This document shows, piece by piece, positions 5,215 to 20,000 of a stretch of DNA of 20,000 nt (the first letter of the stretch is position 1; each line of letters starts with the position of its first letter). The stretch is from Elsinoe ampelina (taxonomy: Eukaryota), in NCBI GenBank assembly GCA_010093995.1, contig ML992507.1:1419637-1439636 (forward strand), in the 5' to 3' direction. Under the pieces are notes generated by a model. It was not told the origin of the DNA and ran no database searches. It was given only the letters and a program-made list of their open reading frames with translations. The translations under genes and the position numbers were made by a program.

Positions 5215-8200
5215 ATGACGGACACGGCTGATCCTTCAGCTAAGGACAGTCTTTTCGTCCCACCCCATGATATCCGTGGTCCATCCATGATGCCATCTGG
5301 TGGGACTGATGTTAGCTCTGCTAGGACTGGAACGCCTCCCACGAGCTCTGCCTCTGAGACTGCTGCTGAGCCTGGCGCAGCTCCTACCAGCCCTCTCGCC
5401 ACCTCTTTCAAAAGACCTGCAGATGAGCCACCAGAAGACGAGCCTGACTCCAAGTCCGCACGCCGAACCATTCCCGGCAAAGTCAACTATCTCGGCGATG
5501 AGCTTGAAGAATACGACCCAGCTGAAGCGTTCTGTTTCGAGCTTCACGAAGGACTACCAATGGTTGCGTCGAGCCTGCCAGAATGCCGCCGAGCCGAGAT
5601 CCTGTCGGCAAAGGGACTACGCCTGGTACTTGATGAGCTCGAAAAACTACCAGAGCAAGGCAAAGAGATAGCTCGTCTCGTGCAGCAAATGAAGATTTGC
5701 TTGAACACCAAGCTGAGCAAGAAGTTTGTGGTAGTACTTGTCGGCGATACGGGAGCAGGGAAGTCCACGTTCCTCAACAAGCTACTTGGTCTTCGCAAGC
5801 AGCTTGCTTCCCAAGGTGCAAACGGCAAAGCTCAAACTCAAGTGGTGACAGAATACCATTTCGACGAGAGATACTCGAAGGAGAATGCGACCAAGCTGTC
5901 GCAACGCTCCATAATTCATCTCAAGTCAAAGGACCGGGTCGATGAGGAGATCGAGGCCCACCTTGAAACCTACTTGACCTTCCACAACACCGCCTTCAGG
6001 AACTTGCGTGGAGTCCAGAGGAAGAAGGAAGACATTGCTGAGGCTGAGACTGCAGAAGAGTTTCTCCTGACCGTTTTCGCTAAGCAGACTGGAGGCAACT
6101 TCAAGAATGCCGACAAACTTCGAGCGTACGCGAGGAAATTGAAAGCAAGAGAATACAACAAGACTCTCAAGGCTTTGCAGGACTATTGCGAAGGGCTACT
6201 ACGACCACACTTTGCGACAAAAGGCGATCCAGCGACCCGCGAGATACGAATCGACGAAGCGACTGTGTCAAAGCACAATCGGGCGGCTGCGGTCTACACG
6301 GAGCGCCCAATGTCTGGCCAGACTGGTCTCTGGCCGCTTGTGGAAAGGGTTCAGACTTTCGTTCCCTGCCCGCTTCTTGCCAAAGGCCTAGTCGTTGCCG
6401 ATGCACCTGGCTTAAGCGATAGTAATGCCATGAGACGGAACGCTTCCGAAAAGTACATCAGAGACGCCAACATGGTCTTCATCTTCGCACCCATCAAACG
6501 TATCGTCGATCACCCCATGATTCGCAAGTACCTCCGCAGCTGTCTCGTATCCAAATCCATCGAGGATGTGGTAGTTGTGCCGACCCAGATCGATGACATG
6601 GGTCAGCCTGGTGAGAGGGACTCGGAGGGAGAGGGACTGGATGATTACACACAGATGATTGCAGAATACGACGAGGCATACGAAGCTGCCGACGAAGCTT
6701 TCAGAAGAGCGTCGAAACGCACCGAGAACACCGAGACCAGGGTATCACTCAAAAAGACTCGAGAGAGAGCTCTGACGACTCTGCAACGCGCTCGCATCTT
6801 GATGCGCAACCAAGCAGTCACTCAGAATCTGCAGGGACTCTTGCCTGCCGAGTATGCCAAAGATAAGCTGTTGGTCATGCCTGTCTCCAGTTCCCAGCAC
6901 CAGCTCTACGTTGACGGCCTCGCCGGAGACGATACTCTACTCAAGATGGGACCTGACGGGCATGGAGAAGACGGAGTTGCGGCCATTCGCTCACTCATGT
7001 TTATGCGGGCCCAAGATGGTTTGATGCAGAGGCTCTTGGACTATGTGTTCAACGACATTGAGGTCCCACTGGGTCGCATGAAGCTGGTGCTGGAGAAGAA
7101 TCCGGACGATCGCAGAGAAAGTCTGTTCAAGGCGGTGGAGGAGGCTATTGAGAATGGCAAAGAATGTGTGACCGGGTATCACAAGAAAATTCAGGCAGCT
7201 GCAGAGCAGAAAGTTCTGAAAGCGATGACCAAGACCAACAAGCACTGGGTCAAACAATTCGACGAGCTGATCCAGGGGTGGTACGACATCGCATACGCAC
7301 ATCAGACATTCAAAGCGATTGCGAGAAGACATGGGCGCCACTACATCAAGAAGCAGGATGCAACGACCGATTGGACTGGCGATGTCATAGGAGTCGTCAC
7401 GCCGTCCATCCAACTGATGATTCGCGACTTCAAACAAGACTGCGAACGCATTCAAGTCAGCCTTCTTGAGTCCTTCAACGGTACGATGGACGGCGTGCGA
7501 GATACTACAAGGACCGACGCCAACGTGGGCGGGATCGACATGACGACCATCTTCAAGCTACTCGAGACGCACAAGAAGCACTTCGAGCACTCCGTTCCCG
7601 CAGCTTTCGCCGCTCTCGCTGACAGCGTCATAAAACTCGGTGCCGGAATCCTACCAGAACCGCACGAGATCCTACCAAATGCCAAATCCAAATCCAAGAC
7701 CAAAAAACTTCGTCTCGCTCGAGGCCAGGGCCGTGACTTCTACAAGAGCATGGTCGCCCTGTACGATGGCCTCGTCAGCGACCAACTTTTCGGGCCTGGC
7801 ACGAAGAAAGTGACCGCGAAGCGCTGGGCCCATCTCCGCAAGCAGCTCTGCAACACCCAATCAGGAAAGCCCATGAGCTCCCTCAGAGCCGACTTCCGCT
7901 TCCGCCTCACCCAAACCATCACCGGGTTTGCCGAACACCTCATGGTGGACATCATGGGATCGCCCTTCAGGGAGATAAGTGCGGATTTCGAAGCCAGGTT
8001 TGGCCGCTACGAAGACTTCCAGGATCAAGCTACCCGCGACAGTATCAAGACTGCGCTTGAGAAGGTACTACCACAGGCCAGACAGATGTTCGATGAAGCG
8101 CAGAGGTGCCTGAACTGTGCGGTCGAGTGGGAGAAGGAACATGGTGGGTTGGTGGCGAAGCCGGTGGCCAAGCAGGTCAAGTTGAAGGCCGAGGACTTTC

Positions 8201-8304
8201 TGGACGACATGGTGAGCGACGTTGAGGAAGAGGATGAAGATGACGACGAGGACGGGGGTGAGACAGAGGATTCGGACTCTGACCTCGAAAGCGAGGCGGA
8301 TTGA
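5215..8304 (+). CDS. Large dynamin-superfamily P-loop GTPase (Dynamin_N; SLIP-GC/NUGGC-like fungal family), 1029 aa, single exon
   Basis: G1 VVVLVGDTGAGKSTFLNKLLG, G2-like AQTQVVTEY, G3 GLVVADAPGLSD preceded by GLWPLVERV, G4-like VVPTQIDD; long helical C-terminal half; low-complexity N-terminus and acidic C-terminal tail; 3-kb uninterrupted ORF. Confidence 0.88.
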   Translation: MTDTADPSAKDSLFVPPHDIRGPSMMPSGGTDVSSARTGTPPTSSASETAAEPGAAPTSPLATSFKRPADEPPEDEPDSKSARRTIPGKVNYLGDELEEYDPAEAFCFELHEGLPMVASSLPECRRAEILSAKGLRLVLDELEKLPEQGKEIARLVQQMKICLNTKLSKKFVVVLVGDTGAGKSTFLNKLLGLRKQLASQGANGKAQTQVVTEYHFDERYSKENATKLSQRSIIHLKSKDRVDEEIEAHLETYLTFHNTAFRNLRGVQRKKEDIAEAETAEEFLLTVFAKQTGGNFKNADKLRAYARKLKAREYNKTLKALQDYCEGLLRPHFATKGDPATREIRIDEATVSKHNRAAAVYTERPMSGQTGLWPLVERVQTFVPCPLLAKGLVVADAPGLSDSNAMRRNASEKYIRDANMVFIFAPIKRIVDHPMIRKYLRSCLVSKSIEDVVVVPTQIDDMGQPGERDSEGEGLDDYTQMIAEYDEAYEAADEAFRRASKRTENTETRVSLKKTRERALTTLQRARILMRNQAVTQNLQGLLPAEYAKDKLLVMPVSSSQHQLYVDGLAGDDTLLKMGPDGHGEDGVAAIRSLMFMRAQDGLMQRLLDYVFNDIEVPLGRMKLVLEKNPDDRRESLFKAVEEAIENGKECVTGYHKKIQAAAEQKVLKAMTKTNKHWVKQFDELIQGWYDIAYAHQTFKAIARRHGRHYIKKQDATTDWTGDVIGVVTPSIQLMIRDFKQDCERIQVSLLESFNGTMDGVRDTTRTDANVGGIDMTTIFKLLETHKKHFEHSVPAAFAALADSVIKLGAGILPEPHEILPNAKSKSKTKKLRLARGQGRDFYKSMVALYDGLVSDQLFGPGTKKVTAKRWAHLRKQLCNTQSGKPMSSLRADFRFRLTQTITGFAEHLMVDIMGSPFREISADFEARFGRYEDFQDQATRDSIKTALEKVLPQARQMFDEAQRCLNCAVEWEKEHGGLVAKPVAKQVKLKAEDFLDDMVSDVEEEDEDDDEDGGETEDSDSDLESEAD

Positions 8305-8418: not shown

Positions 8419-8814
8419 CCCGGGAATTTCAGAGATGCTGGTGGGACGCTGGAGAGCTTCTCGTAGGACAATGCAATGCGGAGGCTCTCAGAGACAAGGA
8501 TGGGATCGAGCGAGACGAGACTGAGGATCTAATCACAGATTATCACATTTATCATCTAGATAGTCCGATCCATTGACCAAAGCAATCCAGTCCCAGAAGC
8601 GTCCATACCATTTCGTGCTCCGAGTTCCAGCTGCCTCGCAGCCCCTTGCTTGCCATCCATCATCGACCCGTGCCTGACTATGAATTGGGTATGCTCTTTG
8701 CCTTCCTGGTGTGCATGGAAATTGTGAGCTTGAAAGATCGGCGTCCGCCTTCCACTTGCGGTCCGACATCCGTTTCAGGTCTAGCGCCATCACTTGCGGC
8801 TCCTCGGACTCCTC

Positions 8815-8956
8815 TGTTGTAACTGGCAAATCGGATCGAGAGACGTGTATTTCATTCAGAGAGTTACAATAACCGATTTATCTACTGTGCGTGCGCTGAC
8901 TTATTAGTGCCAGTTCTTTAGTATTAGAGAAGCTATACTAGCCTTCTATTATAACA
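8815..8956 (-). repeat. Copia 3' LTR, 142 bp
   Basis: Bounded by inverted termini TGTTGTAA (8815) and TTATAACA (8956; one RIP-type mismatch). Directly adjacent to CTCCCTCTC (8957-8965), which is the polypurine tract GAGAGGGAG on the minus strand. The partner LTR is not in the window. Confidence 0.75.
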
Positions 8957-9324
8957 CTCCCTCTCTAGTATAGATTATTAAAGCTAGAGAACTATTCTGT
9001 TATATGTAAGTAAAGTAATTAGCTTATTACTTTATCTCTTTATAATTGCTTATGATTATTAGTGCTAGCTAATCACTAGTAAGAATTTACTATTAGATTA
9101 GCTTATAACAGCTAGTAACAATAGTAACTATTAATAATAGCTAGGTAGCTATTGTCTCTATTGTTCTATGTGAATAGATTAGCTTATAAATCTTAACAAG
9201 GGAGATATAAGTATCTAGCTAACTTCTTTATAGTTTCTCTTTCCTTTATTATACTTATAATAAAAGCCTACTATTTTACATTTCACTTTTACACCTTCTA
9301 TAGTATAAACTAACTCCTTATAGC

Positions 9325-10515
9325 ATAAGTGCTACTACTTAGCTAGGCATTAGTAGTATTACTACTAGTACTAGAGTACTAGGTAGTTCGCTAGGTAGTA
9401 GAGGTAGAGAATGTAATCTTTCTTAGTCTAGAGATTTAACTAGTTCTAAGACAAAAGAGTAGAGTACTATAAGGGCTATTACTAGACTAAATACTCTTAG
9501 TATATTATTCCTTATATAGTCTAAAAAGTAGTACTAACTTATTATAGTTAGGACTAAATAGGCTCTTACTTAGGAGCTTACTATAAGCATCTAGAACAAC
9601 CTTACTAGGCTTAGGGACCTTAGATACTACAACTATAACTTGCTATACTTAGTCTTTAGGTCCTCTACTATTTAGGCTTTTAGTGCTAGTAACCTAGATC
9701 TTTTAGTCTTAGCCCCTATCTAGGTAAAGAACCTAACTAAGATAATTAACTTAACTAGTTCTCTAACTTATATAGCTACCTTAATAGGAACTAGTACTAC
9801 TAGAAGAGTTATTTACTATAGTACTAACTACTACACTAAGTATTAGAGCTCTACTCTAAGTAATAATAATAGCCTTAGTAAAGCTAGTAAGTTCAAGTAG
9901 TATATTATAGTCTCTAGCTAGTTCTATAGTGCCTATACTAACTATGCCTATAGTCTATAGTATAAGACTTGCTCTCTTATCTAGTATACTTTAACTCTAA
10001 GGCCTCTAAAGGAAACTCTAAGTAGTTTAAGGCCTATTACCTAACCTGTTCTATATAGCCTAATATACCTACTAACTAAGCTTCTAAGGTCTTTCTCTTT
10101 TAGTAGTACTTTGCCTTAAAGGTTCTTACTAAGGCCTACTTCTTCTCGTAGTAGGCCTACTAACATTATTAATAAGTCCTTAGTCTATCCTAACTTACGC
10201 TACTTTATTATAGTCCCTATAGACTTTGCTAATCTAGCAAATCCTATATAAGCTAAGCTCTAGGCCCTATAGGTTATTATAGCTAGGTTTGCTATAAACA
10301 TAGCTAAGGTTATATCTAGTAAGAGGGCTAGCCTTCTAATTATTTACACCTTTACTATATAAGGTTTAGCTAGTAGTATAGGTTATATAAGGAATATATC
10401 TAGTTCTTCCCTAAGAAATAAAAGGTTAAGGGCTAACTCTAATATATTAATAGGTAGTAGATCTCGTGCTAGCTCTAAGAGCTTTAAGAGGATAAGAACT
10501 CCTCTAAGAAAGTAA
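9325..10515 (+). pseudogene. RIP-mutated DUF3716-like Cys-rich gene inside the copia element, antisense to pol (~396 codons)
   Basis: One frame with no frameshifts; internal stops are TAG/TAA, as expected from RIP of CAG/TGG/CAA. De-RIPed 9832-9978 reads C-T-K-C...G-K-F-x-Q-C-V-V-V-S-G-Q-F-x-G-A-C-A-N-C-A-Y-S-L-Q-Y-K-T-C-S-L, matching my recollection of the DUF3716 signature. The start is inferred from ATA at 9325. Confidence 0.75.
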
Positions 10516-10764
10516 TTAGTAGAGTGTAATAAGTAGTTAGTAGTATAGGATAGTAGTTAGTATTAAGTAGTAGATATAGCTTAGGTATAAGTAGCTAGTA
10601 ATAAGGTTATAATAGCTTTTTCTTTCTCTCTTTTTAATGTTAAAGTAACTTACTTTAAGTTTTTAGACAAATAAGATAGCTTAATAAGTAGTAGTAGTAT
10701 AAATAATATACTTAAAATAATAATACATATAAAATCTAAATAAGTATATAGTATAGATATACAC

Positions 10765-12656
10765 TAAGTAATTAGCCTTTGCTAATTAATTAAGGATCTT
10801 ATTAGGAGACTTAGGCTTTATAAGTGCATTAGCTAATTACTAAGTTATATTAATATACTTAAGCTTAATTACTCTAAGTTCGTGCTACTCTTTATAGTAA
10901 TAATTCTTTAGATTAATATACTTAGATCTCCTTAAGTTAGTATAATTTCTTATAAGTTTAATAGCTAATTTATTATTAATAAAGACTATAGTTAGACTAA
11001 GGTAGATATTAGTAAGTAGTCTAAGTTTAATAATAAGGTTTCTTAACTAATTAATCTCTCTATAGGTCTTAGTAAGGGTAAGGTATTTAGCCTTAGTNNN
11101 NNNNNNNNNNNNNNNNNNNNNNNNNNNNNNNNNNNNNNNNNNNNNNNNNNNNNNNNNNNNNNNNNNNNNNNNNNNNNNNNNNNNNNNNNNNNNNNNNNNN
11201 NNNNNNNNNNNNNNNNNNNNNNNNNNNNNNNNNNNNNNNNNNNNNNNNNNNNNNNNNNNNNNNNNNNNNNNNNNNNNNNNNNNNNNNNNNNNNNNNNNNN
11301 NNNNNNNNNNNNNNNNNNNNNNCCTTTAAGCTTCTCCTTTAAGTAGTGTAATTACTTAATCTTAATTATGTCCTTAGTTCTATAAAGTTAAATACTAAGG
11401 AAGAGGTTTAAGTTTATAATCTTTATTAGAAACTTAAGATAAAGATCTTTAACTAGCTTATCTATATACTTCTACCTAGTAGTAATAATTCTAAAGTTAT
11501 TAATATATATAAGAACTATATAGTACTTATTAATAAAGAGATAAGCATTACTATAAAATTTATTAAAACTAAGTAATAGAAGTGCCTTAACTATAGCGTT
11601 ATACTAGAGGGTAGTAGCTTACTTAAGCCTATATAAGCCCTTTATAAGAACAATAAGCTTATTCTATTTACTAGGAATTAGTACGCCTTCTAGGTAAGAG
11701 ATATAGTTCTTAATATTAATATCTAGTCTAAGGAATATAGTAACTACATTAGCTATTATAATAACCTAGTTATAATAAAGAGTATATATAAGAATTACTC
11801 TTCTAGTTTTAGCTCTTAGTATTAGTATAAAGGTTCTAACAAAGTTAATGCCTACTCTTTAAGTAAAGCTCCTTATAGTTTAATAAGCCTTATATCTTTT
11901 AACTTTACTATTAGTAAGCCTCTTAGTCTTAAAGATCTATTTACCTATTATTAGCCTAACACTTCTTAGTGCCTATGATTTCTTAATAATTAAAAAGGTT
12001 TTAGAGTTAGTTAGAGCCTTCTACTCTGCCTCTATTATAGCTTACTAGTAATAACCTTTAGAAGAGGATAGTATATCTCTTACTATTTGTAGGTCTAGCT
12101 TAAAATTGACAGCTATAGATCTAATAATCTTACTATTATTAAGCTTCTTATAATTAATCTAGCGATGTATTTTAAGAGACCTTCTAATAGTTTCTTATAG
12201 TAAGAGAGATCTCTTTCTTTTACTAGTTAGAGGTTATATATTAAATAGTATAATAAGGAAGTTAATATCTTTATTCTATATATATATTAGTAGTTAATTA
12301 ATATTAACTATAGGATTAAAGGTTAAATATAGTTTACTAATAACTTTAGGTAGTAGTATTATAAGGTCTTCGCTCTTATAATTAGTAATAACAAGTTACT
12401 TCTCCTATTTATTAATAGGTTAAGGATCTAGTTTAGGATGTTAGTATTGCTCTCTCTATTCTTTAATAGGGGTAGATAATTGTTATTTATATCTAGGGAT
12501 TAAAGGGTAGTTAGATATTAGTTGTTTAGCTTAAGGTTATTTAGCCTAAGTAGTTTATAGATTCTTATAACTAAAGGGTAGTTAATTATAGCTATAGTCT
12601 TAATTATAATTACTACTAAATATCTACTCCCTCTAAAGCTATAAAGCCTTAGGTTA
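10765..12656 (-). pseudogene. pol: Copia pol relic: reverse transcriptase and RNase H
   Basis: De-RIPed motifs: WIFKTK (~11935), YKAR..F.Q..GIDF, DVVTAFL, LVKGLYGLKQA..LWY (~11600-11650), VLVYVDDF (~11495-11515), FVDNKSAI, RSKHIDLK, QLADALTKP (~10795-10825). Boundaries are approximate. Confidence 0.9.
11098..11322. other. Assembly gap (225 N)
   Basis: Run of N between the copia RT and RNase H segments. Confidence 1.
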
Positions 12657-12661
12657 TTATA

Positions 12662-12892
12662 TATTAGAGGTAGATTATATTAATACTAGTAAGTATATAT
12701 AATAATTAACTTATAGTAGTATAAGGATAGCTCTTAATTAGTAGTGCGAATAATACTTAAGGAAACTATCTTCCTCCGCTAGTGCGTAGTAAGATTAGAG
12801 CCTATATATATAGGCTATCTAAAGCTAGCTAGACCCTAGATCCTTACACCTAATTAGAAGCTTATACCTTATCCCTAAAGATCTCTATAATA
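12662..12892 (-). repeat. Gypsy 3' LTR, 231 bp
   Basis: Ungapped match to 19418-19648 with ~13 differences by eye, all transitions. Termini TATT...AATA are RIPed TGTT...AACA. Followed on + by TTACCTCCTTCTCT, the complement of the PPT AGAGAAGGAGGTAA. Confidence 0.96.
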
Positions 12893-13264
12893 TTACCTCC
12901 TTCTCTAAGCTAATGTCCTTAGCAGCTAGCCTCGATAAAAACCTATTAGCCTTTATAACTATTATAGGAAAAGAGTGTCTAGCATTGCTACTTTATCTAC
13001 TTATGTCTCTTATATAATTTTTGCATAGTCCGTATATAATTAGTAAGGTTATTGTAGCTTTATTGCTTCTAGAAAGGTAAGTAATATGCGCTTTATTTAG
13101 GCTTTATTTAGGATTTTTGCCTCCTAGGCCCTTAGTACTAGAACTGCCTTTGTTACGTAGGACAATAATAATAAATATAGCTAGAATATATTTCTACGAC
13201 GCGCCTATACTTCTTAACTTCCTTAATAATACTTATTACACATACTACACCTTCTTTGCCTATT

Positions 13265-14260
13265 ATAGTTGCCTTTAGTAGACTAATATACATTAGCTCT
13301 ACTACTCTTAGTTGTGCCTATAACTATGCTTTTCGCCGCCGAGTTACCTACGATATAACTACGCTCTATATGCCGACTTATATATACTACGTATATAAGA
13401 TTATAAAGTATAGTATAGTTTATAGTAGGCTAGACCTTAAGAGGTGTAACTACTATACTAGAGGTAATAGATCTTCCTACACTCTAGTAGGGACTTTACT
13501 AAGTAATACTCTCCTATAACATTACTAATACACTTAGGTACCTATTACGTTTAATAGTTACGTCGAGCGCGTATACTAGTTCTACAATACCTATATCTAG
13601 GCTATTAATACTAGTACCTTTCCTAGGAATAGGAGAAGCTAAGACTCTACTATCTAGCGTATAGGCTTAGCTCTTACGCGCGCCTAGCGTACCCTTACCT
13701 AGTAGCTTAAGCATTATAGGTATATTATAGCTCTTAGAGGAAATCCCTTAGAAATACTAACTAAGGTGCCTAAGTCTAGCTCTAATATAGAGAGGCTATA
13801 GCTGTTAGAGTAGAGGAGAATTACTAATGTCCTAAAATAGATAGCTGTTTAGTAGTTTAGCTATGTAAGTTTATACCCTACTTGCTTCTAGTTTATATAC
13901 TAATAGCTAGGATAGCCTAGTCCTCTTAGGTTTAGTAGTAGTGCTCCTAGTGGTAGGCCTTACCTACACTTTAGGCCTAGTAGTAGTCCTAGAGGTAGTA
14001 GTAGTAGTAGAGGTAGAGGTAATAGAGGTAGAGATAGAGGTAATAGTAGCGGGAGTAGTAGCGTAAGTTTATACCTACCTATTACCTACATCGTATACTA
14101 ATATCGTAGCTAGGGTAGTAGAGGTAGTAATAATAGTAATAGGGATAGAGATAGCCCTAATAGAGATAGAGAGGATAGGGAGAATAGAGATAATAAGGAT
14201 ATTAAGGAGTTTAGTAGTTTAAGTAATAAGAATACTAATAACTAGATAGACGTAGTATAA
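13265..14260 (+). pseudogene. RIP-mutated four-exon antisense accessory gene of the gypsy element: Zn2Cys6-like Cys motif, helical middle, Gly-rich/acidic tail (~280 aa); join(13265..13486,13538..13864,13916..14062,14114..14260)
   Basis: Three GT...AG introns of 51 nt with CTAAT branch-like motifs (13487-13537, 13865-13915, 14063-14113), all phase 0, give one continuous frame whose internal stops are all TAG/TAA. The start (ATA for ATG), stop and two of the acceptor sites are inferred. Confidence 0.72.
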
Positions 14261-14589
14261 TCGCTATTATATATTATGTTAATCACTTACTAATAGTATA
14301 GCTAGGATAAAGAGGATAACTTAGATATTGTTATTAATAAGAATAAGAATAATAAGTAGTTATTACGCTTATTGCTTATAGGTTAGCTATATAAAGCATA
14401 TATAGCATAGGTGTTTTTAGTATTATTCTTACGAAGATACTAGGCTAAAGAGCTATAGATAGAAATAGACAGTCTTAATCCTTAAGCTAATGTTCCTATT
14501 AAAGTTATAAAGCTAAAGTCTCTAGTGCTAAGTATCTTATTATAAGTATATAATAGTATTACTACGAGTTATCTACTATCTACTACTAA

Positions 14590-17500
14590 GTTACTTATTC
14601 TTCTCTTAACCCTAGCTATACTTACTACTTTCTCTAAACTCCCTTAATAAGTTATCTATCTCCTTAAAGTCCTCTTCCTTTATCTATAAGCTTTTAGTCT
14701 TATTATACCTTTCCTACTTAAGTAGATATTTCTTCTTCCCTACGTATATAGTATGCTCCGTAAGAATCTTCTCTATATACTAAACTTATTCTCTATCTTT
14801 TACTAGCTCTAGGGCCCTTATGTTTAGTAATTCTTCTCCTTCCCTAGGGTAAAAGAGCTCTAGAAGAGACACATAAAACACATCGTATATGCGATAAGAG
14901 CTTAGTAGCTATAGGCGATATACCTAAGAGTTAATTACTTCCTTAACATAAAATAGGCCTACGAATTTGTCTATTAGCTTCTTACTTAGGGCTTTAAGCT
15001 TAAGGTTCTTTATGTTTAGCTACACTAAGTCCTTTAGCTTAAACTTTATTAGGGTATACTTCTTGTTATAGTACCGGGTTTAATACTTAGCTACGGCCTT
15101 TAAGCGCTCTTAAAGATTTACTTATAGTACGTATATGTTTTACACTTGTCGTATAGCTACTAGTATCTCCCCCTCTAGCTGCCTATCCTTAGGCGAGTTA
15201 TAGAGGATTAGGTACTTTCCTAGGACAATAAAGAACAGAGTTTTCTTTGTTGCTATATATATTAAGTTATTATATACAAATTCGGCTATATAAAGCAAAT
15301 TCGGCTAGTCTTTAGAATGCTCTCTTATAAATACCTAAAGGTAGTGTTCGAGTGTCTAATTCTAGTATTCTATTTACTTATCGGTTTATAGATAGAAAGC
15401 TATACTTAACCTACGCTTTACCTATAGTTAATAGCAAATTTTAGTCTAGAACTAGCTTATAAAGAGAGATCCTCTATCTAACATAATTCCTTTCTATACA
15501 CTATATTTGCAAATTATATGCTTAAAGTAGACATCTATAAAGTCCTTTATAGTCTATATCTCCTTAGCTACAATATAGATTACTAGCTTTAATAATCTAT
15601 TATAGATTACTAAGATTACATTATATGTGCTACTATTATACATTATAGAGGGGAGCTTTATAATAAAGTCTAGTATAACTTCTTTAAAGATATTAGAAGG
15701 AATAGGTAGAGATAATAGCTTACTATATAGTATATGCCTTAGTACTTTTAACCTTTAGCACGTGCTATATGTCTTAATATACTTATACACTTCCTAATCT
15801 AATAATAGCTAGTAGTAGTATCTACTAATTAGATTATGCATTCTTATAGCGCTATAGTAGCTAGCTATATAAGAGTTATAATGTTAATATAAGATTTCTT
15901 GTCTTAGACTTAGTTTATTAGGAACATAGAGCCTGCCCTTATATATAAGAGTTCTATCTTTACGTTTATACTATGCTAGTAACTTCTTACTACTTTAGGT
16001 ACGCTCTTCCTACTCTAGATCGGCTATGCGCTTTAAAGCAAAAGCGTTCCTCTACTAAAGTATATAGATAGTCTATAATATTAAAGTATCCTCTACTAAT
16101 ATAAGTTCGCTAGTAATAAGTACTCTCGCTAGATAGCGTAGTATATATAGTATATATTCTATAGCACTAGTAGTTAGGCTAGATCTACGTTTATAGGTTA
16201 TAGGCTATTAACCTACAACCTCTAAGCTATGCTTAGGGGTAGAGCTAATTCCACTAACAAGTTACACCCTTGTAGTAACTAGATCTAATCCTAGTTTACT
16301 TACTAAGTTTAGCTTATGTTATAAGGTAGAGAGTAATCTTATAAGTGCGTAGTTCTCCTTAAAGTAGTCTACTCTTCTTAAGGGCCTATTAGCTAGATTT
16401 AACTTGCTAGGGCAGTGCTAGACTTCGAAGTTAAAGGCTTCTAGGTAGGACGCCTATTACGCCTAGCACGGGTTAAGCTTACTTATATCGCGTATGTCTT
16501 GTAGGTTATTATAGTCACTTAGAACTTGTATAGTATACTAAGTGCCCTTAAGGTAGTAACGCTACTACTTAAAGCAATAGATAATTACGTATAGTTCTTA
16601 GTTATATACCTCCTAGATACGCTCTACTCTCTAAAGCTTCTTAGAGATAAAGGCGACTAGGTGCCATTTCTCGTCTTTATATAGCTAGGAGAGAATACCT
16701 GCTACTATAAAGGTCGATATATCTATCTCTAGGCATATTAGTAGCTAGGGGTCGAAATGTTATAGTAAAGGCGCTTCTATAAAGCATACTTTAAGCTAAA
16801 CAAAGCTAGCTTCTATAGCTTCTAGCTATATAAAGGTAAATTGCTCCTTCTTTAAAAGATCTATTATAGGGGCTATTAGTTTTATATAATTCTAAATAAA
16901 TCTATAATAGAAGTTAGCAAAGCTAAGGAATAACTAAAGCTCCTTAACGCTAGTTAGTCGAGGCTATCTAGAGATAGTTACTACTTGCGTAGGATTAGCG
17001 TAGACACCTCGCATGTCTATAATAAACCCTAAGAAGAACATCTACTTTATAGTAAAGGTATACTTAGACAGGTTTACGAACAGTTTAGCCTGTCTTAACT
17101 GTTTAAGAATAGCGCTTACTACTCGCTAGTAGGTATCTAGATCTTTACTATAAGTGTAGATAAGAATATTATCTAGGTATACTATATATAGATAGTCTAC
17201 TAATCCTCTAAGAGTCTAGTTAATATAGGCCTAGAAGGTAGTAGGCGCGTTAGTAAGCCTAAAAGGCATAACTAGGTATTTAAAATAGCTATAACGTGTT
17301 CTAAAGGCAGTCTTCTACTTATCTCCTAGGCTAATATAGATTCTGTTATAAGCATCCTTTAGATCTAGAGTTATATAGTAATATACGCCTAATAGGTAGT
17401 CTAGCGTCTTACTAATTAAGGAGAGTAAGTAGTAATCCTTTATAGTAACAGAGTTAAGGCCTCTATAGTTAATATATAAACGAAGAGTGCTATTCTTCTT

Positions 17501-18322
17501 TAGCATAAATAGGATAGGTGCCTCTACTAGGCTTATACTATAACGAATTTAGCCCTTCTTAAGTGTATCTTCGAGGTATAATTATAGCACCTTAAGCTCT
17601 TATAAAGAGAGGTTATAGAGCAGGCTATAAGGTAGCTCCTTGCCTAGTAGAATAGGAATTTAATAATTCTCTTCTTTAGTAGTAGGTAGGATTTTAGTAG
17701 CATTAGTATTAAAGACGTCCCGGTAGTCTAATAATACGTCTAGCACTTAATTTTCCTAGGAGACACTAGCAATTTAGACATAGGTAATAACTTCCTTACC
17801 TTAAGAGTTACTATAAACCACGCCTAAGAAGTGTATATAGCTCTCCTCTTATTCTAGCTACTAGATTGTTACTATCTAGATACGTAACTTGTCTTTAATG
17901 CTCTAAGCCTAAGTCTACTATCTATAGTCTAGCTATATAGCTTCTCTTTATAAGAAGGAGTTACCTAAGAGTAGCTCTAGCCCTTCTTTGTCTACTCTAT
18001 AAGTAATAGTTTTAACCTAGTATATTACGCCTCGGTTGTTAGTAAGTACTACCTATATCTTATATATAGTATATATAGCTTTCCTCTCTAACTCTACCTA
18101 GGCTAGTTAAGGTAGGTTACTTAGTACTAAGTTAAGGTTTATCTTAATTGCTATATGCTAGCTAATAAGGCTAACCTCTACTTAAGAATCTAGAATAACT
18201 CCTACCTTATAGTTAACCCTAGTTGCTTCTATTATAATGTAGATATAATATATCCCTAGTAAAATATTAATAGCTCTATGCCTTATAGTTCCGGAGGTAA
18301 CTACGAGGCTCGGCCTTTTCCC
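14590..18322 (-). pseudogene. pol: Gypsy pol relic: protease, RT, RNase H, integrase, chromodomain
   Basis: De-RIPed motifs: ILDS (protease, ~18190), KK.GTLRLCVDYRGLN, LDLKDAYN, KTAFRT, MPFGLTNAPATFQ, VYLDDILI (~17165-17182), LETDAS..AGILSQ, WHPVAF.SKK, integrase CxxC (~15760), LDFI, SDRGSLF (~15470), PQTDGQTERQN (~15370), GPF (~14955), chromodomain VEKIL...KYLLKWEGY...SW (~14685-14785). The 3' end is approximate. Confidence 0.95.
18280..18322 (-). promoter_or_regulatory. Putative -1 programmed ribosomal frameshift signal between gag and pol
   Basis: Slippery heptamer G GGA AAA in the gag frame (18322-18316), a 6-nt spacer, then an 11-bp stem-loop (18309-18280). The RT frame is -1 relative to gag. 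Confidence 0.75.
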
Positions 18323-19377
18323 TAGACCTATCTTACGCGAGTAATAGGCTCCTTATTAGTGTCTAAGAGTTAGGCTTTCTTCCTACACTCGTTTACGTAG
18401 TAGCCTATCTTCTTATAGAAGTAGCATTTAACTCCCGACTTGTAGGAGGAGTCTTTCTTAGAGGCTAACCTCTCTTTATATTAATCCTCGCATTATAGCT
18501 TTTAGCTATATCTAGCTAAGTAATTGCGATAGTTCTATAGCTTGCCTATGCCCTATAGGTTATACTCTAGCGTAGATCCTAGAATAATAAGACCTTCTCT
18601 TATTAGAGGTATAGTATAGTAGTTTATAATTGCTTACTAAAGTTCAGAGCGGAGTTTTAAGAATAGGTACTATATATAGTACTCCTCTAAGTAGGGGGGT
18701 AGCTAGTTCTTAATTGTTTCTAAATAGGTAGCGAAGGCCCTAATACTCTATCTAGGAAGTTATAGCGTAGTAGTATACGTAGTAGTTGCTTCTAGGGTAC
18801 AATTAATAGAATTAGAGAGTATGTCTAGTAGAAAGGTCTTAAATTAGCTCTAGGTATACGATTTTATAAGTAGCTTATACTTTATATAAGAGTACTATAC
18901 TTCGTATAGGTCCTCTATAAGATACTAGCTTACCTAAGTAACCTTCTCTTGTTCTAACTAGAAGTTCTCTAGAGTAAGCTAGAAGGCTATCTTATAGCTC
19001 TAAGTAAATTCCTTATGTTTCCTTAGGTGTTTCTCTTTATATTCCCTAGGATCCTTTAGCCTTATACTACGCTTCGTACGTAAAGATTCTATATCTTAAG
19101 AGGTATAGCGCTTATAACTTTCAGCTGCTAATCTTATTTCTACATCGCTTTAGATCTTAATACTATCTAGATTTACTTCTCTCTTAAGGAGAGCAATTTG
19201 TTCCTTAATCTATTAGAGAGTCTATTCCTATAGGAGATAATCCCTTCGCTATTCTACGTTATAGATATGCTTCTCGAGCGAGGTAGTTACTACTAGCAGT
19301 TCTCCCGGAGTAGTTATAGAGGTTCCTATACTCTCCTTATTACTAATAGAGCCTAACTACGTCCTTGTAATAGCTAT
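18301..19377 (-). pseudogene. gag: Gypsy gag relic with C-terminal CCHC zinc knuckle
   Basis: De-RIPed C-Y-F-C-K-K-x-G-H-Y-x-N-E-C at ~18383-18427; the frame ends QGKGRAS-stop at 18301. The start is inferred from ATA at 19377, just inside the 5' LTR boundary region. Confidence 0.85.
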
Positions 19378-19417
19378 CCTTAGACTACTTTCTAAGTAAG
19401 GCAAGGAAGTATTATTA

Positions 19418-19648
19418 TATTAGGGGTAGATTATATTAATACTAGTAAGTATATATAATAATTAACTTATAGTAGTATAAGGATAGCTCTCGATTAGTAG
19501 TGCGAATAATACTTAAGGAAACTATCTTCCTCCGCTAGTGTATAGTAAGATTAGAGCCTATACGCATAGGCTATCTAAAGCTAGCTAGACTCTAGATCCT
19601 TATACCTAATTAGAAGCTTACACCTTATCCCTAAAGATCCCTATAACA
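19418..19648 (-). repeat. Gypsy 5' LTR, 231 bp
   Basis: Direct repeat of 12662-12892; begins TGTT on the minus strand (AACA ending at 19648); flanked by TSD TTATA. Confidence 0.96.
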
Positions 19649-19653
19649 TTATA

Positions 19654-20000
19654 CCTATAGAATATATAGCTATTTAATAACTTATATTACCTAGTCTTTA
19701 TAGACTATATTCTTATTAAATGTTATATAGAGTAATATAATAATCTTTCCCTTCTAGGCTTACTAAGTATAATACTAATAGAGTATCTAGATAAGGTAAT
19801 TAGTTGTTAAGTTGTTCTATATACTAATATACTAACTAAGTAGTACTCTAGCTTAGAATTTGTATAATTTAGAAACATATTAGTTATAGATATAGGCTCT
19901 ATAGCTAAAGCGTCTAATATAAGTTAATAAGACTAGCCTATTATTATTAAGAAGATTCTTTCTTAGCTCTTATATAGGGATCTTCTTAGTTTTAGTATAG
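19654..20000 (-). pseudogene. pol: Copia integrase C-terminal (SH3-like) relic, upstream continuation of the interrupted pol
   Basis: De-RIPed reading HIRRFGCRAYIH...KFQARALLG.YVG...NYLIW...HVTFDEN is typical of the region following the copia integrase core. Confidence 0.85.

What the first reader, a model, noticed from the sequence alone, without database searches (positions are those of the whole stretch)
8815..19648. Convergent architecture: two unrelated nested retrotransposon superfamilies each carry an antisense six-Cys gene at the same position
Seen: the copia host and the gypsy insert both have the layout pol, then a convergent antisense gene, then PPT and 3' LTR. Inferred: each gene encodes a six-Cys, two-CxxC putative zinc-binding module with low-complexity flanks, with no obvious sequence similarity between them. 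Independent acquisition of the same design points to a shared selective function, such as countering RIP/RNAi/heterochromatin silencing, activating LTR transcription or controlling copy number. This may be an under-described class of fungal retroelement accessory systems that RIP hides from annotation pipelines. The function is speculation.
Basis: inference. Interest (0 to 1): 0.8.

Follow-up and report, generated by a model that had tools for sequence, protein, structure and literature searches.

The report
Antisense zinc-type gene in fungal retrotransposon
A mutation-wrecked fungal gypsy retrotransposon carries, backwards between its polymerase gene and its end repeat, a real and conserved six-cysteine gene, but the matching gene claimed for the surrounding copia element could not be confirmed.

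Summary
Window 8815-20000 is RIP-degraded DNA. It holds a Ty1/copia element on the minus strand with a 6,992-bp Ty3/gypsy chromovirus, also on the minus strand, nested inside it.

The gypsy half of the finding is confirmed.
- The plus strand at 13265-14245, between pol and the PPT/3' LTR, encodes a member of an unnamed Pleosporales protein family. Support: phmmer E 1.8e-7 against 1.84 billion proteins, and family HMM E 1e-19.
- The family has an invariant C-x2-C-x9/10-C-x7-C-x2-C-x6/7-C module, three long helices and an acidic Gly/Asp/Ser tail.
- In the window, 5 of the 6 Cys are Tyr (TGY to TAY), the start codon is ATA, and there are 12 internal TAG/TAA stops.
- Two copies of a different gypsy family (65-67% nucleotide identity) in another genome carry the same gene at the same place and orientation.

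The copia half is not confirmed.
- A 1.4-kb spacer exists and its plus frame is fairly open.
- It has no homologue in any search I ran and only one real Cys codon.
- It is 5-35 times less abundant in reads than the rest of the copia.

So "convergent architecture" is unproven. Antisense genes at this position are already known (Boty brtn; plant Grande, RIRE2 and Retand). This gene family, and its link to transposons, appear undescribed. Its function is inferred only: an element-encoded regulator.

The parts
8815..9231 (-). copia 3' LTR; the right boundary is approximate
   Evidence: Loose ends at 8814/8815 in X1, X3, X4 and X5. Depth is 106,337 in bin 8802-9202, about twice the 50-67k of copia pol. 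GC drops at 8815. The partner LTR lies outside the window.
9234..9250 (-). candidate copia polypurine tract (a pyrimidine run on the plus strand)
   Evidence: Read from the sequence. Inferred, not tested.
9232..10690 (.). copia spacer between pol and LTR; holds the unverified plus-strand candidate frame 9601-10512
   Evidence: The plus frame has 4-6 stops per 100 codons and R/Y codon periodicity. There were 0 homologues, 0 Pfam families and 0 PDB sequences. Depth is only 3-12k, against 50-106k in the flanking copia parts.
10691..11098 (-). C-terminal part of copia pol (RNase H region), cut by the N run 11099-11323
   Evidence: Recognised by eye from the translation (motifs recalled, no tool hit).
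11325..11960 (-). copia reverse transcriptase (RVT_2)
   Evidence: Pfam PF07727, E 8.4e-14, 52.2 bits.
12660..12895 (-). gypsy 3' LTR
   Evidence: Direct repeat of 236 nt, 94% identical to 19416-19651. All 13 mismatches are transitions.
12896..12906 (-). gypsy polypurine tract (AGAGAAGGAGG on the minus strand), abutting the 3' LTR
   Evidence: Read from the sequence. A similar tract, AGAAGGGGAG, sits at the same place in L001.
13265..13486 (+). antisense gene, exon 1: the start codon is ATA where the family has Met; conserved N-terminus and Cys module
   Evidence: Alignments A1 and A4; tblastn of P0001 and P0010.
13379..13480 (+). six-Cys module; here one Cys plus five Tyr at the six Cys columns
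   Evidence: A4. The six Cys are invariant in 5 of 5 intact relatives (A5). It is the only non-trivial hit of the [C/Y] pattern in the AT-rich block.
13487..13537 (+). intron 1 (51 nt, phase 0; GTAGGG...ACTAAT...TTAG)
   Evidence: It falls in an alignment gap against the spliced models P0005, P0010 and P0024. P0012, P0003 and P0002 read through the same place. Found by the motif scan.
13538..13864 (+). antisense gene, exon 2: the helical core, with 12 internal TAG/TAA stops
   Evidence: phmmer hits cover it; family HMM E 1.1e-19 over 13286-13867. At four sites a stop aligns with Gln in at least some relatives.
13865..13915 (+). candidate intron 2 (51 nt, phase 0; GTAAGT...TACTAAT...TAG)
   Evidence: Motif scan. 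Many relatives' gene models diverge at exactly this point (A3). Inferred.
13916..14062 (+). exon 3: low-complexity Ser/Arg/Gly/Asn stretch, matching the family's acidic Gly/Asp/Ser tail
   Evidence: Translations; tails of P0024, P0005 and P0012. The frame choice is inferred.
14063..14113 (+). candidate intron 3 (51 nt, phase 0)
   Evidence: Motif scan. Inferred only.
14114..14245 (+). exon 4: low-complexity tail up to TAG at 14243-14245
   Evidence: Translation. Inferred.
14612..19415 (-). gypsy gag-pol
   Evidence: Pfam hits: RVT_1 17500-17018, RNase H 16813-16436, integrase Zn 15910-15746, SH3_Tf2-1 15031-14855. The chromodomain-like end near 14760-14620 and the gag zinc knuckle were seen by eye.
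19416..19651 (-). gypsy 5' LTR
19652..20000 (-). the copia resumes upstream of the gypsy insertion
   Evidence: Depth is 77,161, like the copia parts and unlike the gypsy's 1.5-2.4k.

Best explanation
Window 8815-20000 is a RIP-killed Ty1/copia element on the minus strand, with a RIP-killed 6,992-bp Ty3/gypsy chromovirus nested in it, also on the minus strand.

Shown: the gypsy element carries a convergent plus-strand gene of about 275 codons between the end of pol and the PPT/3' LTR. The gene starts about 370 nt from the LTR and has at least one 51-nt intron, probably three. Its product belongs to a conserved, unnamed protein family of Pleosporales fungi. The family has four parts: a conserved N-terminus, an invariant six-Cys module with two CxxC, three long helices, and an acidic Gly/Asp/Ser tail. 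The gene is an integral, inherited part of this lineage of gypsy elements. In the window it is dead: ATG has become ATA, five of six Cys have become Tyr, and Gln codons have become stops.

Inferred mechanism (about 1 in 4): the protein is an element-encoded regulator. On this reading the Cys module binds zinc and nucleic acid and the tail acts as an activation or interaction region. The gene would be transcribed from its own promoter next to the 3' LTR, against the element's genomic RNA. Protein and antisense transcript together would then tune the element's expression or its silencing.

The copia element has a long spacer between pol and LTR, but no gene in it is demonstrated. That spacer is most likely a variable or inserted segment of a minority copia subfamily.
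For: Homology
- phmmer of the plus frame 12896-14599 against 1,835,955,588 proteins gave 10 hits at E <= 1e-3, the best at 1.8e-7. Nine of the 10 are proteins of 102-217 aa that align to the same stretch.
- Three of the 9 looked up are named hypothetical proteins of Paraphaeosphaeria sporulosa and Pyrenochaeta sp..
- A profile of these proteins found 17 proteins, including a full-length 237-aa Alternaria alternata protein.
- The family HMM hits the window at E 1.1e-19, and no other six-frame translation of the window matches (next best E 1.4).

Colinearity and decay
- Colinear alignment places the family's Met at ATA 13265 and intron 1 at 13487-13537.
- The six invariant Cys columns read one Cys plus five Tyr in the window.
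- Stops align with Gln in at least some relatives.

Same architecture elsewhere
- L001 and L003 are two copies in another genome. Both have 164-169-nt LTR pairs, minus-strand RVT_1, RNase H and SH3_Tf2-1, and the homologue on the plus strand about 300 nt from the 3' LTR.
- Their RT/RNase H DNA is only 65-67% identical to the window's.
- Both are RIPed, with Tyr at 6 of 6 Cys columns.

Integral part of the element
- Read depth over the gene (1,510-2,410) equals that over pol (1,572-2,212).

Copia
- See the observation check.
Against: - No RNA evidence. No RNA contig covers either spacer, which is uninformative for a RIPed copy.
- Genomic context is known only for the window and for two copies in one other genome. 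L002 and L004 match L001 and L003 with identical statistics and look like the same loci in a second assembly.
- The context of the intact relatives (Alternaria, Pyrenochaeta) is unknown, so some may be host genes.
- Zinc binding and nucleic-acid binding are not shown.
- There is no Pfam family (0 of 6 relatives above cutoff), no PDB sequence relative, and only generic helix matches by fold.
- The AlphaFold model of the Cys module is of low confidence.
- Introns 2 and 3 and the tail's frame rest on splice motifs and composition only.
- For the copia, absence of homologues for a RIPed query is weak negative evidence. The plus frame is open and shows codon-like periodicity.
Confidence: 0.8

Rival explanations
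1. One reading: both the copia host and the gypsy insert independently acquired an antisense six-Cys zinc-module gene at the same position. This would be convergent evolution of a retroelement accessory system.
For: - The gypsy gene is real.
- The copia has a spacer of about 1.4 kb at the same relative position.
- Its plus frame 9601-10512 has only 4-6 stops per 100 codons and positive R/Y codon periodicity.
- A 22-residue stretch near 9925-9990 has six Tyr plus one Cys, with CxxC-like spacings if Tyr is read as former Cys.
Against: - There were 0 homologues in two protein searches covering lengths 30-532 aa, 0 Pfam families and 0 PDB sequences.
- It does not match the gypsy family.
- The same plus frame is equally open across copia pol, where it is not coding, so openness is weak evidence.
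- R/Y periodicity cannot tell a frame from its antisense partner.
- Tyr codons are common in every frame of RIPed DNA.
- A GTAAGT...TACTAAC...TAG intron-like signal (9887-9953) overlaps the supposed Cys cluster.
- The spacer has 5-35 times less read depth than the copia LTR and pol.
Confidence: 0.1
2. The copia spacer does encode a real plus-strand gene, but of an unknown family with no Cys module. The similarity to the gypsy layout would then lie in position only.
For: The plus frame is open and shows R/Y periodicity over about 1.3 kb. Botrytis LTR elements other than BcGypsy1 are also drawn with additional ORFs (passage in PMC8365987).
Against: The same negative searches apply. The low and uneven depth of the spacer points to a variable or inserted segment rather than an integral gene.
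Confidence: 0.15
3. The gypsy plus-strand gene is a one-off captured host fragment, or a chance open frame in RIPed DNA, and not a gene of the element.
For: Most relatives in the databases are annotated only as hypothetical proteins, and their genomic context is unseen. Some sit on megabase contigs.
Against: - The same gene sits at the same place and orientation in a gypsy family that is only 65-67% identical, in another genome.
- Depth over the gene equals depth over pol.
- The HMM E-value is 1e-19.
- The six Cys are invariant in 5 of 5 intact relatives that share only 41-49% identity.
- Many relatives lie on contigs of 0.6-6.6 kb, one of them on 9 contigs, as repeats do.
Confidence: 0.04

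Closest known systems
brtn, the antisense gene of Boty-like (BcGypsy1) chromoviruses of Botrytis cinerea and Sclerotinia (Zhao et al. 2011, Virology 417:248). The paper itself is not held; I know it from passages in PMC7264820, PMC8365987, PMC4227169 and PMC5987419.
   Same: Both are fungal Ty3/gypsy elements with a chromodomain and a length of about 6.4-7 kb. In both, an extra gene sits on the antisense strand between pol and the 3' LTR.
   Different: The host class differs: Leotiomycetes there, Pleosporales relatives here. No entry named BRTN appeared among the 10 phmmer hits or the 17 profile hits. I had no brtn sequence, so homology is untested. Whether brtn has a Cys module is unknown to me.
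Plant antisense additional ORFs between pol and the 3' LTR (maize Grande1, rice RIRE2, Silene Retand, Phaseolus PvRetro13); review PMC7264820, passages read.
   Same: Position, orientation, conservation within the family, and unknown function.
   Different: These are plant elements with unrelated sequences. I recall that they are mostly non-chromovirus Tat/Retand lineages.
HBZ of HTLV-1 (recalled knowledge, not tested here)
   Same: It works alike in layout: a spliced gene on the antisense strand, driven from the 3' LTR side, encoding a small regulator with helices and an activation-type region.
   Different: HBZ belongs to a retrovirus of humans and is a bZIP protein, not a Cys module. There is no sequence or fold relation. 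The HBZ helix at Z 4.7 is a generic helix match.
Gal4-type Zn2Cys6 binuclear cluster (Pfam PF00172); consensus CX2CX6CX5-12CX2CX6-8C, recalled
   Same: Six Cys with two CxxC. The second half (C-x7-C-x2-C-x6/7-C, with Lys-Pro after the third Cys) fits the spacing. Predicted short helices start at each CxxC. Helices and an acidic tail follow, as in fungal activators.
   Different: The first loop is 9-10 residues, not 6. Zn_clus was not listed for any of the 6 relatives scanned at E <= 10. The basic residues after the first CxxC are missing.

Membership tests
LTR-retrotransposon antisense additional ORF between pol and 3' LTR (Boty brtn; plant Grande, RIRE2, Retand) | Lies between the end of pol and the PPT/3' LTR | tested here: met
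   The gene is at 13265-14245. The first in-frame pol stop is at 14612-14614, the PPT at 12896-12906 and the LTR at 12660-12895.
LTR-retrotransposon antisense additional ORF between pol and 3' LTR (Boty brtn; plant Grande, RIRE2, Retand) | Encoded on the strand opposite to gag-pol | tested here: met
   The pol domains are on the minus strand. The family match is on the plus strand.
LTR-retrotransposon antisense additional ORF between pol and 3' LTR (Boty brtn; plant Grande, RIRE2, Retand) | Present in the copies of the family and conserved in related families | tested here: met
   Depth is uniform over the gene and pol. The layout is the same in L001 and L003 of a gypsy family 65-67% identical.
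LTR-retrotransposon antisense additional ORF between pol and 3' LTR (Boty brtn; plant Grande, RIRE2, Retand) | Transcribed, and spliced where introns exist | not testable with these tools
   No RNA contig lies on the spacer, and this copy is RIPed. Splicing of intron 1 is implied only by the gene models of P0005, P0010 and P0024.
brtn family proper | Sequence homology to BRTN of Boty | not testable with these tools
   The paper is not held and I had no BRTN sequence. No hit carried that name.
Gal4-type Zn2Cys6 binuclear cluster (PF00172) | Spacing CX2CX6CX5-12CX2CX6-8C (recalled consensus) | tested here: not met
   The first loop is 9-10 residues in 5 of 5 intact relatives. The second half fits (A5).
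Gal4-type Zn2Cys6 binuclear cluster (PF00172) | Match to the Pfam model | tested here: not met
   Six relatives were scanned at E <= 10 and Zn_clus was not listed for any. The precomputed Pfam field is '-' for 17 of 17.
Ty3/gypsy chromovirus | LTR pair; domain order RT, RNase H, integrase; C-terminal chromodomain | tested here: met
   LTRs. RVT_1, RT_RNaseH, Integrase_H2C2 (below cutoff at 20.6 bits) and SH3_Tf2-1 lie in that order on one minus frame. The chromodomain was seen by eye only; there was no Pfam Chromo hit.
Ty1/copia | RVT_2-type reverse transcriptase; integrase upstream of RT; LTR pair | tested here: inconclusive
   RVT_2 at E 8.4e-14. The integrase and the 5' LTR lie outside the window.
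RIP-mutated repeat | TpA/ApT well above 0.89 and (CpA+TpG)/(ApC+GpT) below 1.03 (recalled thresholds); differences between copies are transitions | tested here: met
   Indices are 1.57-2.69 and 0.17-0.67 in the block, against 0.53 and 1.30 in the host DNA. 13 of 13 LTR mismatches are transitions.

The most novel reading that the evidence does not exclude
A lineage of Pleosporales chromoviruses encodes, antisense to pol, its own miniature zinc-cluster-type transcription regulator. It would have a Cys6 module, helices and an acidic tail. It would act on the element's LTR or on host silencing, as a fungal-transposon counterpart of a retroviral antisense regulator. In addition, the copia spacer would hide an independently acquired gene of the same design, so that the layout is convergent.
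Probability: 0.08. Interest if true: 0.8.

Novelty: new variant of a known kind. Interest (0 to 1): 0.5.

Why it matters
Accessory genes of fungal LTR retrotransposons are almost unstudied; brtn of Boty is the one published case that my searches found. This work ties an unnamed family of small "hypothetical proteins" in Pleosporales genomes and metagenomes to gypsy elements. It also gives the family a gene model and a conserved six-Cys signature.

This matters for three reasons.
- Annotation: these proteins are transposon genes, not host genes.
- RIP studies: the case shows how Cys-to-Tyr and Gln-to-stop changes hide such genes from pipelines.
- Biology: it makes a concrete question testable, namely whether a fungal transposon encodes its own nucleic-acid-binding regulator.

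The broader claim of convergence between superfamilies would be more striking, but it is not supported here.

Tried and rejected
- Own genome: not held, so there was no genome-wide copy analysis.
- RNA evidence: no RNA holder was listed, and no RNA-type contig lay on either spacer. This says nothing about expression.
- Joint 9259 to 10558 in one X1 contig: it has only 27 letters on its shorter side, under the 31 needed, so I did not count it as a bridge. Only the depth profile is used.
- Pfam on 12 frames of both spacers at E <= 10: one meaningless row (Neur_chan_memb, E 0.87).
- Similarity between the copia spacer and the gypsy element: nothing beyond chance by blastn or tblastn.
- R/Y codon periodicity: shows a coding-like signal but cannot tell the strand.
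- Stop density: the same plus frame is open across copia pol too, so it is weak evidence.
- Fold searches of the P0024 model: Foldseek against the PDB gave no hit at E <= 1e-3. VIA-wide gave a best Z of 5.3, with only helical hairpins and coiled coils.
- AlphaFold of the N-terminal/Cys part alone: mean pLDDT 47.8, too poor to search with.
- PDB sequence searches: 0 hits.
- Homodimer prediction of the helical part: no verdict.
- Viral-contig scan: 0 relatives.
- The genome search on the fetched loci: the records are not held.
- Earlier findings of this scan: nothing returned in 3 look-ups.
- Target-site duplication of the gypsy insertion: not resolved, because the LTR ends are blurred by RIP and a 2-nt indel.
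- Zhao et al. 2011: not held.
- Literature searches for antisense ORFs in fungal LTR elements and one TE-family name search: only the Boty case turned up. The fungal LTR survey PMC3248453 has no occurrence of 'antisense'. bioRxiv supplements and Fig. S1 of PMC8365987, which draws further additional ORFs, could not be seen and may bear on the novelty claim.

Full report
**1. What the region is.**
The window splits at 8815. To the left is host DNA at 52-58% GC with long ORFs. One is a 1029-aa dynamin-type GTPase whose nearest clusters are from Ascomycota. To the right is DNA at 18-38% GC.

The RIP indices are extreme on the right and normal on the left. TpA/ApT is 1.57-2.69 against 0.53. (CpA+TpG)/(ApC+GpT) is 0.17-0.67 against 1.30.

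One direct repeat pair stands out: 12660-12895 and 19416-19651, 236 nt at 94% identity. All 13 mismatches are transitions.

Reading stops as X, Pfam finds these domains on one minus-strand frame between the repeats:
- RVT_1 at 17500-17018
- RNase H at 16813-16436
- an integrase zinc domain at 15910-15746 (below Pfam's cutoff)
- SH3_Tf2-1 at 15031-14855

By eye there is also a gag zinc knuckle and a chromodomain-like end. The first in-frame stop falls at 14612-14614. A purine tract (AGAGAAGGAGG on the minus strand) abuts the 3' LTR.

Outside this 6,992-bp gypsy element, RVT_2 lies at 11960-11325 on the minus strand. A copia-type pol C-terminus is readable by eye down to about 10690.

Reads from the likely source genome (X1, single-copy depth 150) give these depths:
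- 50-67k over copia pol
- 77k over 19629-20000
- 106k over 8802-9202
- 1.5-2.4k across the whole gypsy

Loose ends at 8814/8815 in 4 of 4 runs mark the copia terminus.

**2. The gypsy antisense gene is real.**
No Pfam family matched either spacer on either strand. I therefore sent the plus frame of 12896-14599, with TAA/TAG read as Q and TGA as W, to a full phmmer scan of 1.84 billion representatives.

It returned 10 hits at E <= 1e-3, the best at 1.8e-7. Nine are small proteins of 102-217 aa that match the same stretch. The tenth is a 2515-aa protein that matches only the low-complexity part.

Three of the nine are named hypothetical proteins of Paraphaeosphaeria sporulosa and Pyrenochaeta sp.. 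A profile of the nine found 17 proteins, among them a full-length 237-aa Alternaria alternata protein. None has a Pfam domain.

The alignments show a clear family architecture:
- a conserved N-terminus (MV.Y..PKYI.K)
- six invariant Cys, spaced C-x2-C-x9/10-C-x7-C-x2-C-x6/7-C
- a core with VP.E.NGR..RLY, G..LAR.Q and EQRRI
- an acidic Gly/Asp/Ser tail

The window's frame is colinear with this architecture:
- ATA at 13265 stands where the family has Met.
- The six Cys columns read Tyr, Tyr, Tyr, Cys, Tyr, Tyr.
- At four sites, a TAG stop aligns with Gln in at least some relatives.
- A 51-nt stretch (13487-13537) with GTAGGG...ACTAAT...TTAG sits where spliced models have a gap and unspliced models read through.

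An HMM of the family scores E 1.1e-19 over 13286-13867. No other six-frame translation of the window matches; the next best has E 1.4.

Two more 51-nt, phase-0 intron candidates (13865-13915 and 14063-14113) would join the core to a Ser/Arg/Gly/Asn-rich stretch. That stretch corresponds to the family's Gly/Asp tail after G-to-A changes. This part of the gene model is inferred.

**3. It is a gene of the element, not a stray.**
A metagenome-contig scan gave four loci. L001/L002 and L003/L004 have identical match statistics, so I count two independent copies. In L001 and L003:
- LTR pairs of 169 and 164 nt lie about 6.4 kb apart.
- RVT_1, RNase H and SH3_Tf2-1 lie on the minus strand in both; L001 also has the integrase Zn domain.
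- The homologue lies on the plus strand, 295-317 nt from the 3' LTR, with a similar purine tract at the LTR edge.

Their RT/RNase H DNA is only 65-67% identical to the window's element, so this is another gypsy family with the same layout. Both copies are RIPed too: the start is ATA and Tyr stands at 6 of 6 Cys columns.

In the source genome the gene region has the same depth as pol. Many database relatives sit on contigs of 0.6-6.6 kb, and one on 9 contigs, as expected of repeats.

Conservation argues against neutral drift. The six Cys are invariant in 5 of 5 intact relatives that are only 41-49% identical to each other.

**4. The copia gene is not shown.**
The spacer (about 9232-10690) exists. 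Its plus frame with position mod 3 = 1 has 4-6 stops per 100 codons over 9601-10500 and positive R/Y codon periodicity. The tests against a gene there were these:
- The same frame is just as open (6-7 stops per 100 codons) across copia pol, where it is not coding.
- R/Y periodicity is symmetric between a frame and its antisense partner.
- Two protein searches that together covered lengths 30-532 aa found nothing. Neither did Pfam, PDB sequences or the gypsy family profile.
- The only CxxC-like cluster in that frame (near 9925-9990) is six Tyr codons and one Cys codon. A strong intron-like signal (9887-9953) overlaps it.
- Depth over 9203-10405 is 3-12k, against 50-106k on both sides. Most copies of this copia family therefore lack the segment, or carry a much diverged version.

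I put a real copia antisense gene at about 1 in 4, and one with a six-Cys module at about 1 in 10.

**5. How it may work.**
Shown: position, strand, family membership, conservation and decay by RIP.

Inferred: the Cys module binds zinc. The second half of its spacing, and the Lys-Pro after the third Cys, recall the fungal Zn2Cys6 cluster. The first loop is too long, however, and Pfam Zn_clus does not match.

AlphaFold (pLDDT 75) predicts short helices starting at each CxxC, followed by three long helices. No solved fold or sequence relative was found.

A metal module, helices and an acidic tail make the outline of a small regulator. Transcription towards pol would also produce RNA antisense to the element's genomic RNA.

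I rate [quoted passage not shown] at about 25%. The rest is open.

**6. Comparison and novelty.**
Antisense ORFs between pol and the 3' LTR are published for Boty of Botrytis and Sclerotinia (brtn) and for plant Grande1, RIRE2, Retand and PvRetro13 (passages in PMC7264820; also PMC8365987, PMC4227169, PMC5987419). The kind is therefore known.

No hit here carried the name BRTN, but I could not compare sequences. The Cys6 family, its link to gypsy elements and its gene model did not turn up in my searches.

Verdict: a new variant of a known kind, of moderate interest. The headline claim of convergence is unproven.

Noticed in passing
window 11099-11323: A run of 225 N sits inside the copia pol, between RVT_2 and the RNase H part. 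The pol reading frame differs on its two sides.
   Followed up: no
window 5215-8304 (+): An intact 1029-aa ORF of the dynamin-N/DUF7605 GTPase type ends about 500 nt from the edge of the RIPed block. Its nearest clusters are from Ascomycota.
   Followed up: partly
window 8815-8956: The first 80-140 nt of the copia LTR occur in contigs of runs X3, X4 and X5, joined to unrelated GC-rich sequence. These copies have C where the window has T (for example at 8902, 8905 and 8924). So less-RIPed LTR pieces lie at many other loci, possibly in transcripts.
   Followed up: no
window 13487-13537, 13865-13915, 14063-14113: All three intron candidates of the antisense gene are exactly 51 nt long and in phase 0. 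The second and third begin with the same 13 bases.
   Followed up: partly
P0010 and P0025 (database relatives): The annotated Paraphaeosphaeria protein P0010 has Tyr at 2 of the 6 Cys columns, so it looks RIP-touched itself. P0025 is filed under Quercus suber but groups with fungal sequences, which suggests fungal DNA in that plant assembly.
   Followed up: no
L001 about 18934-19092 (-): A hAT-family dimerisation domain (PF05699, E 2.8e-7) lies about 3 kb from the gypsy element in the related locus.
   Followed up: no
window 9887-9953 (+): A textbook fungal intron signal (GTAAGT, TACTAAC, TAG; 67 nt) lies in the copia spacer. By my scan such signals arise by chance about 0.4 times per kb of RIPed strand.
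   Followed up: partly
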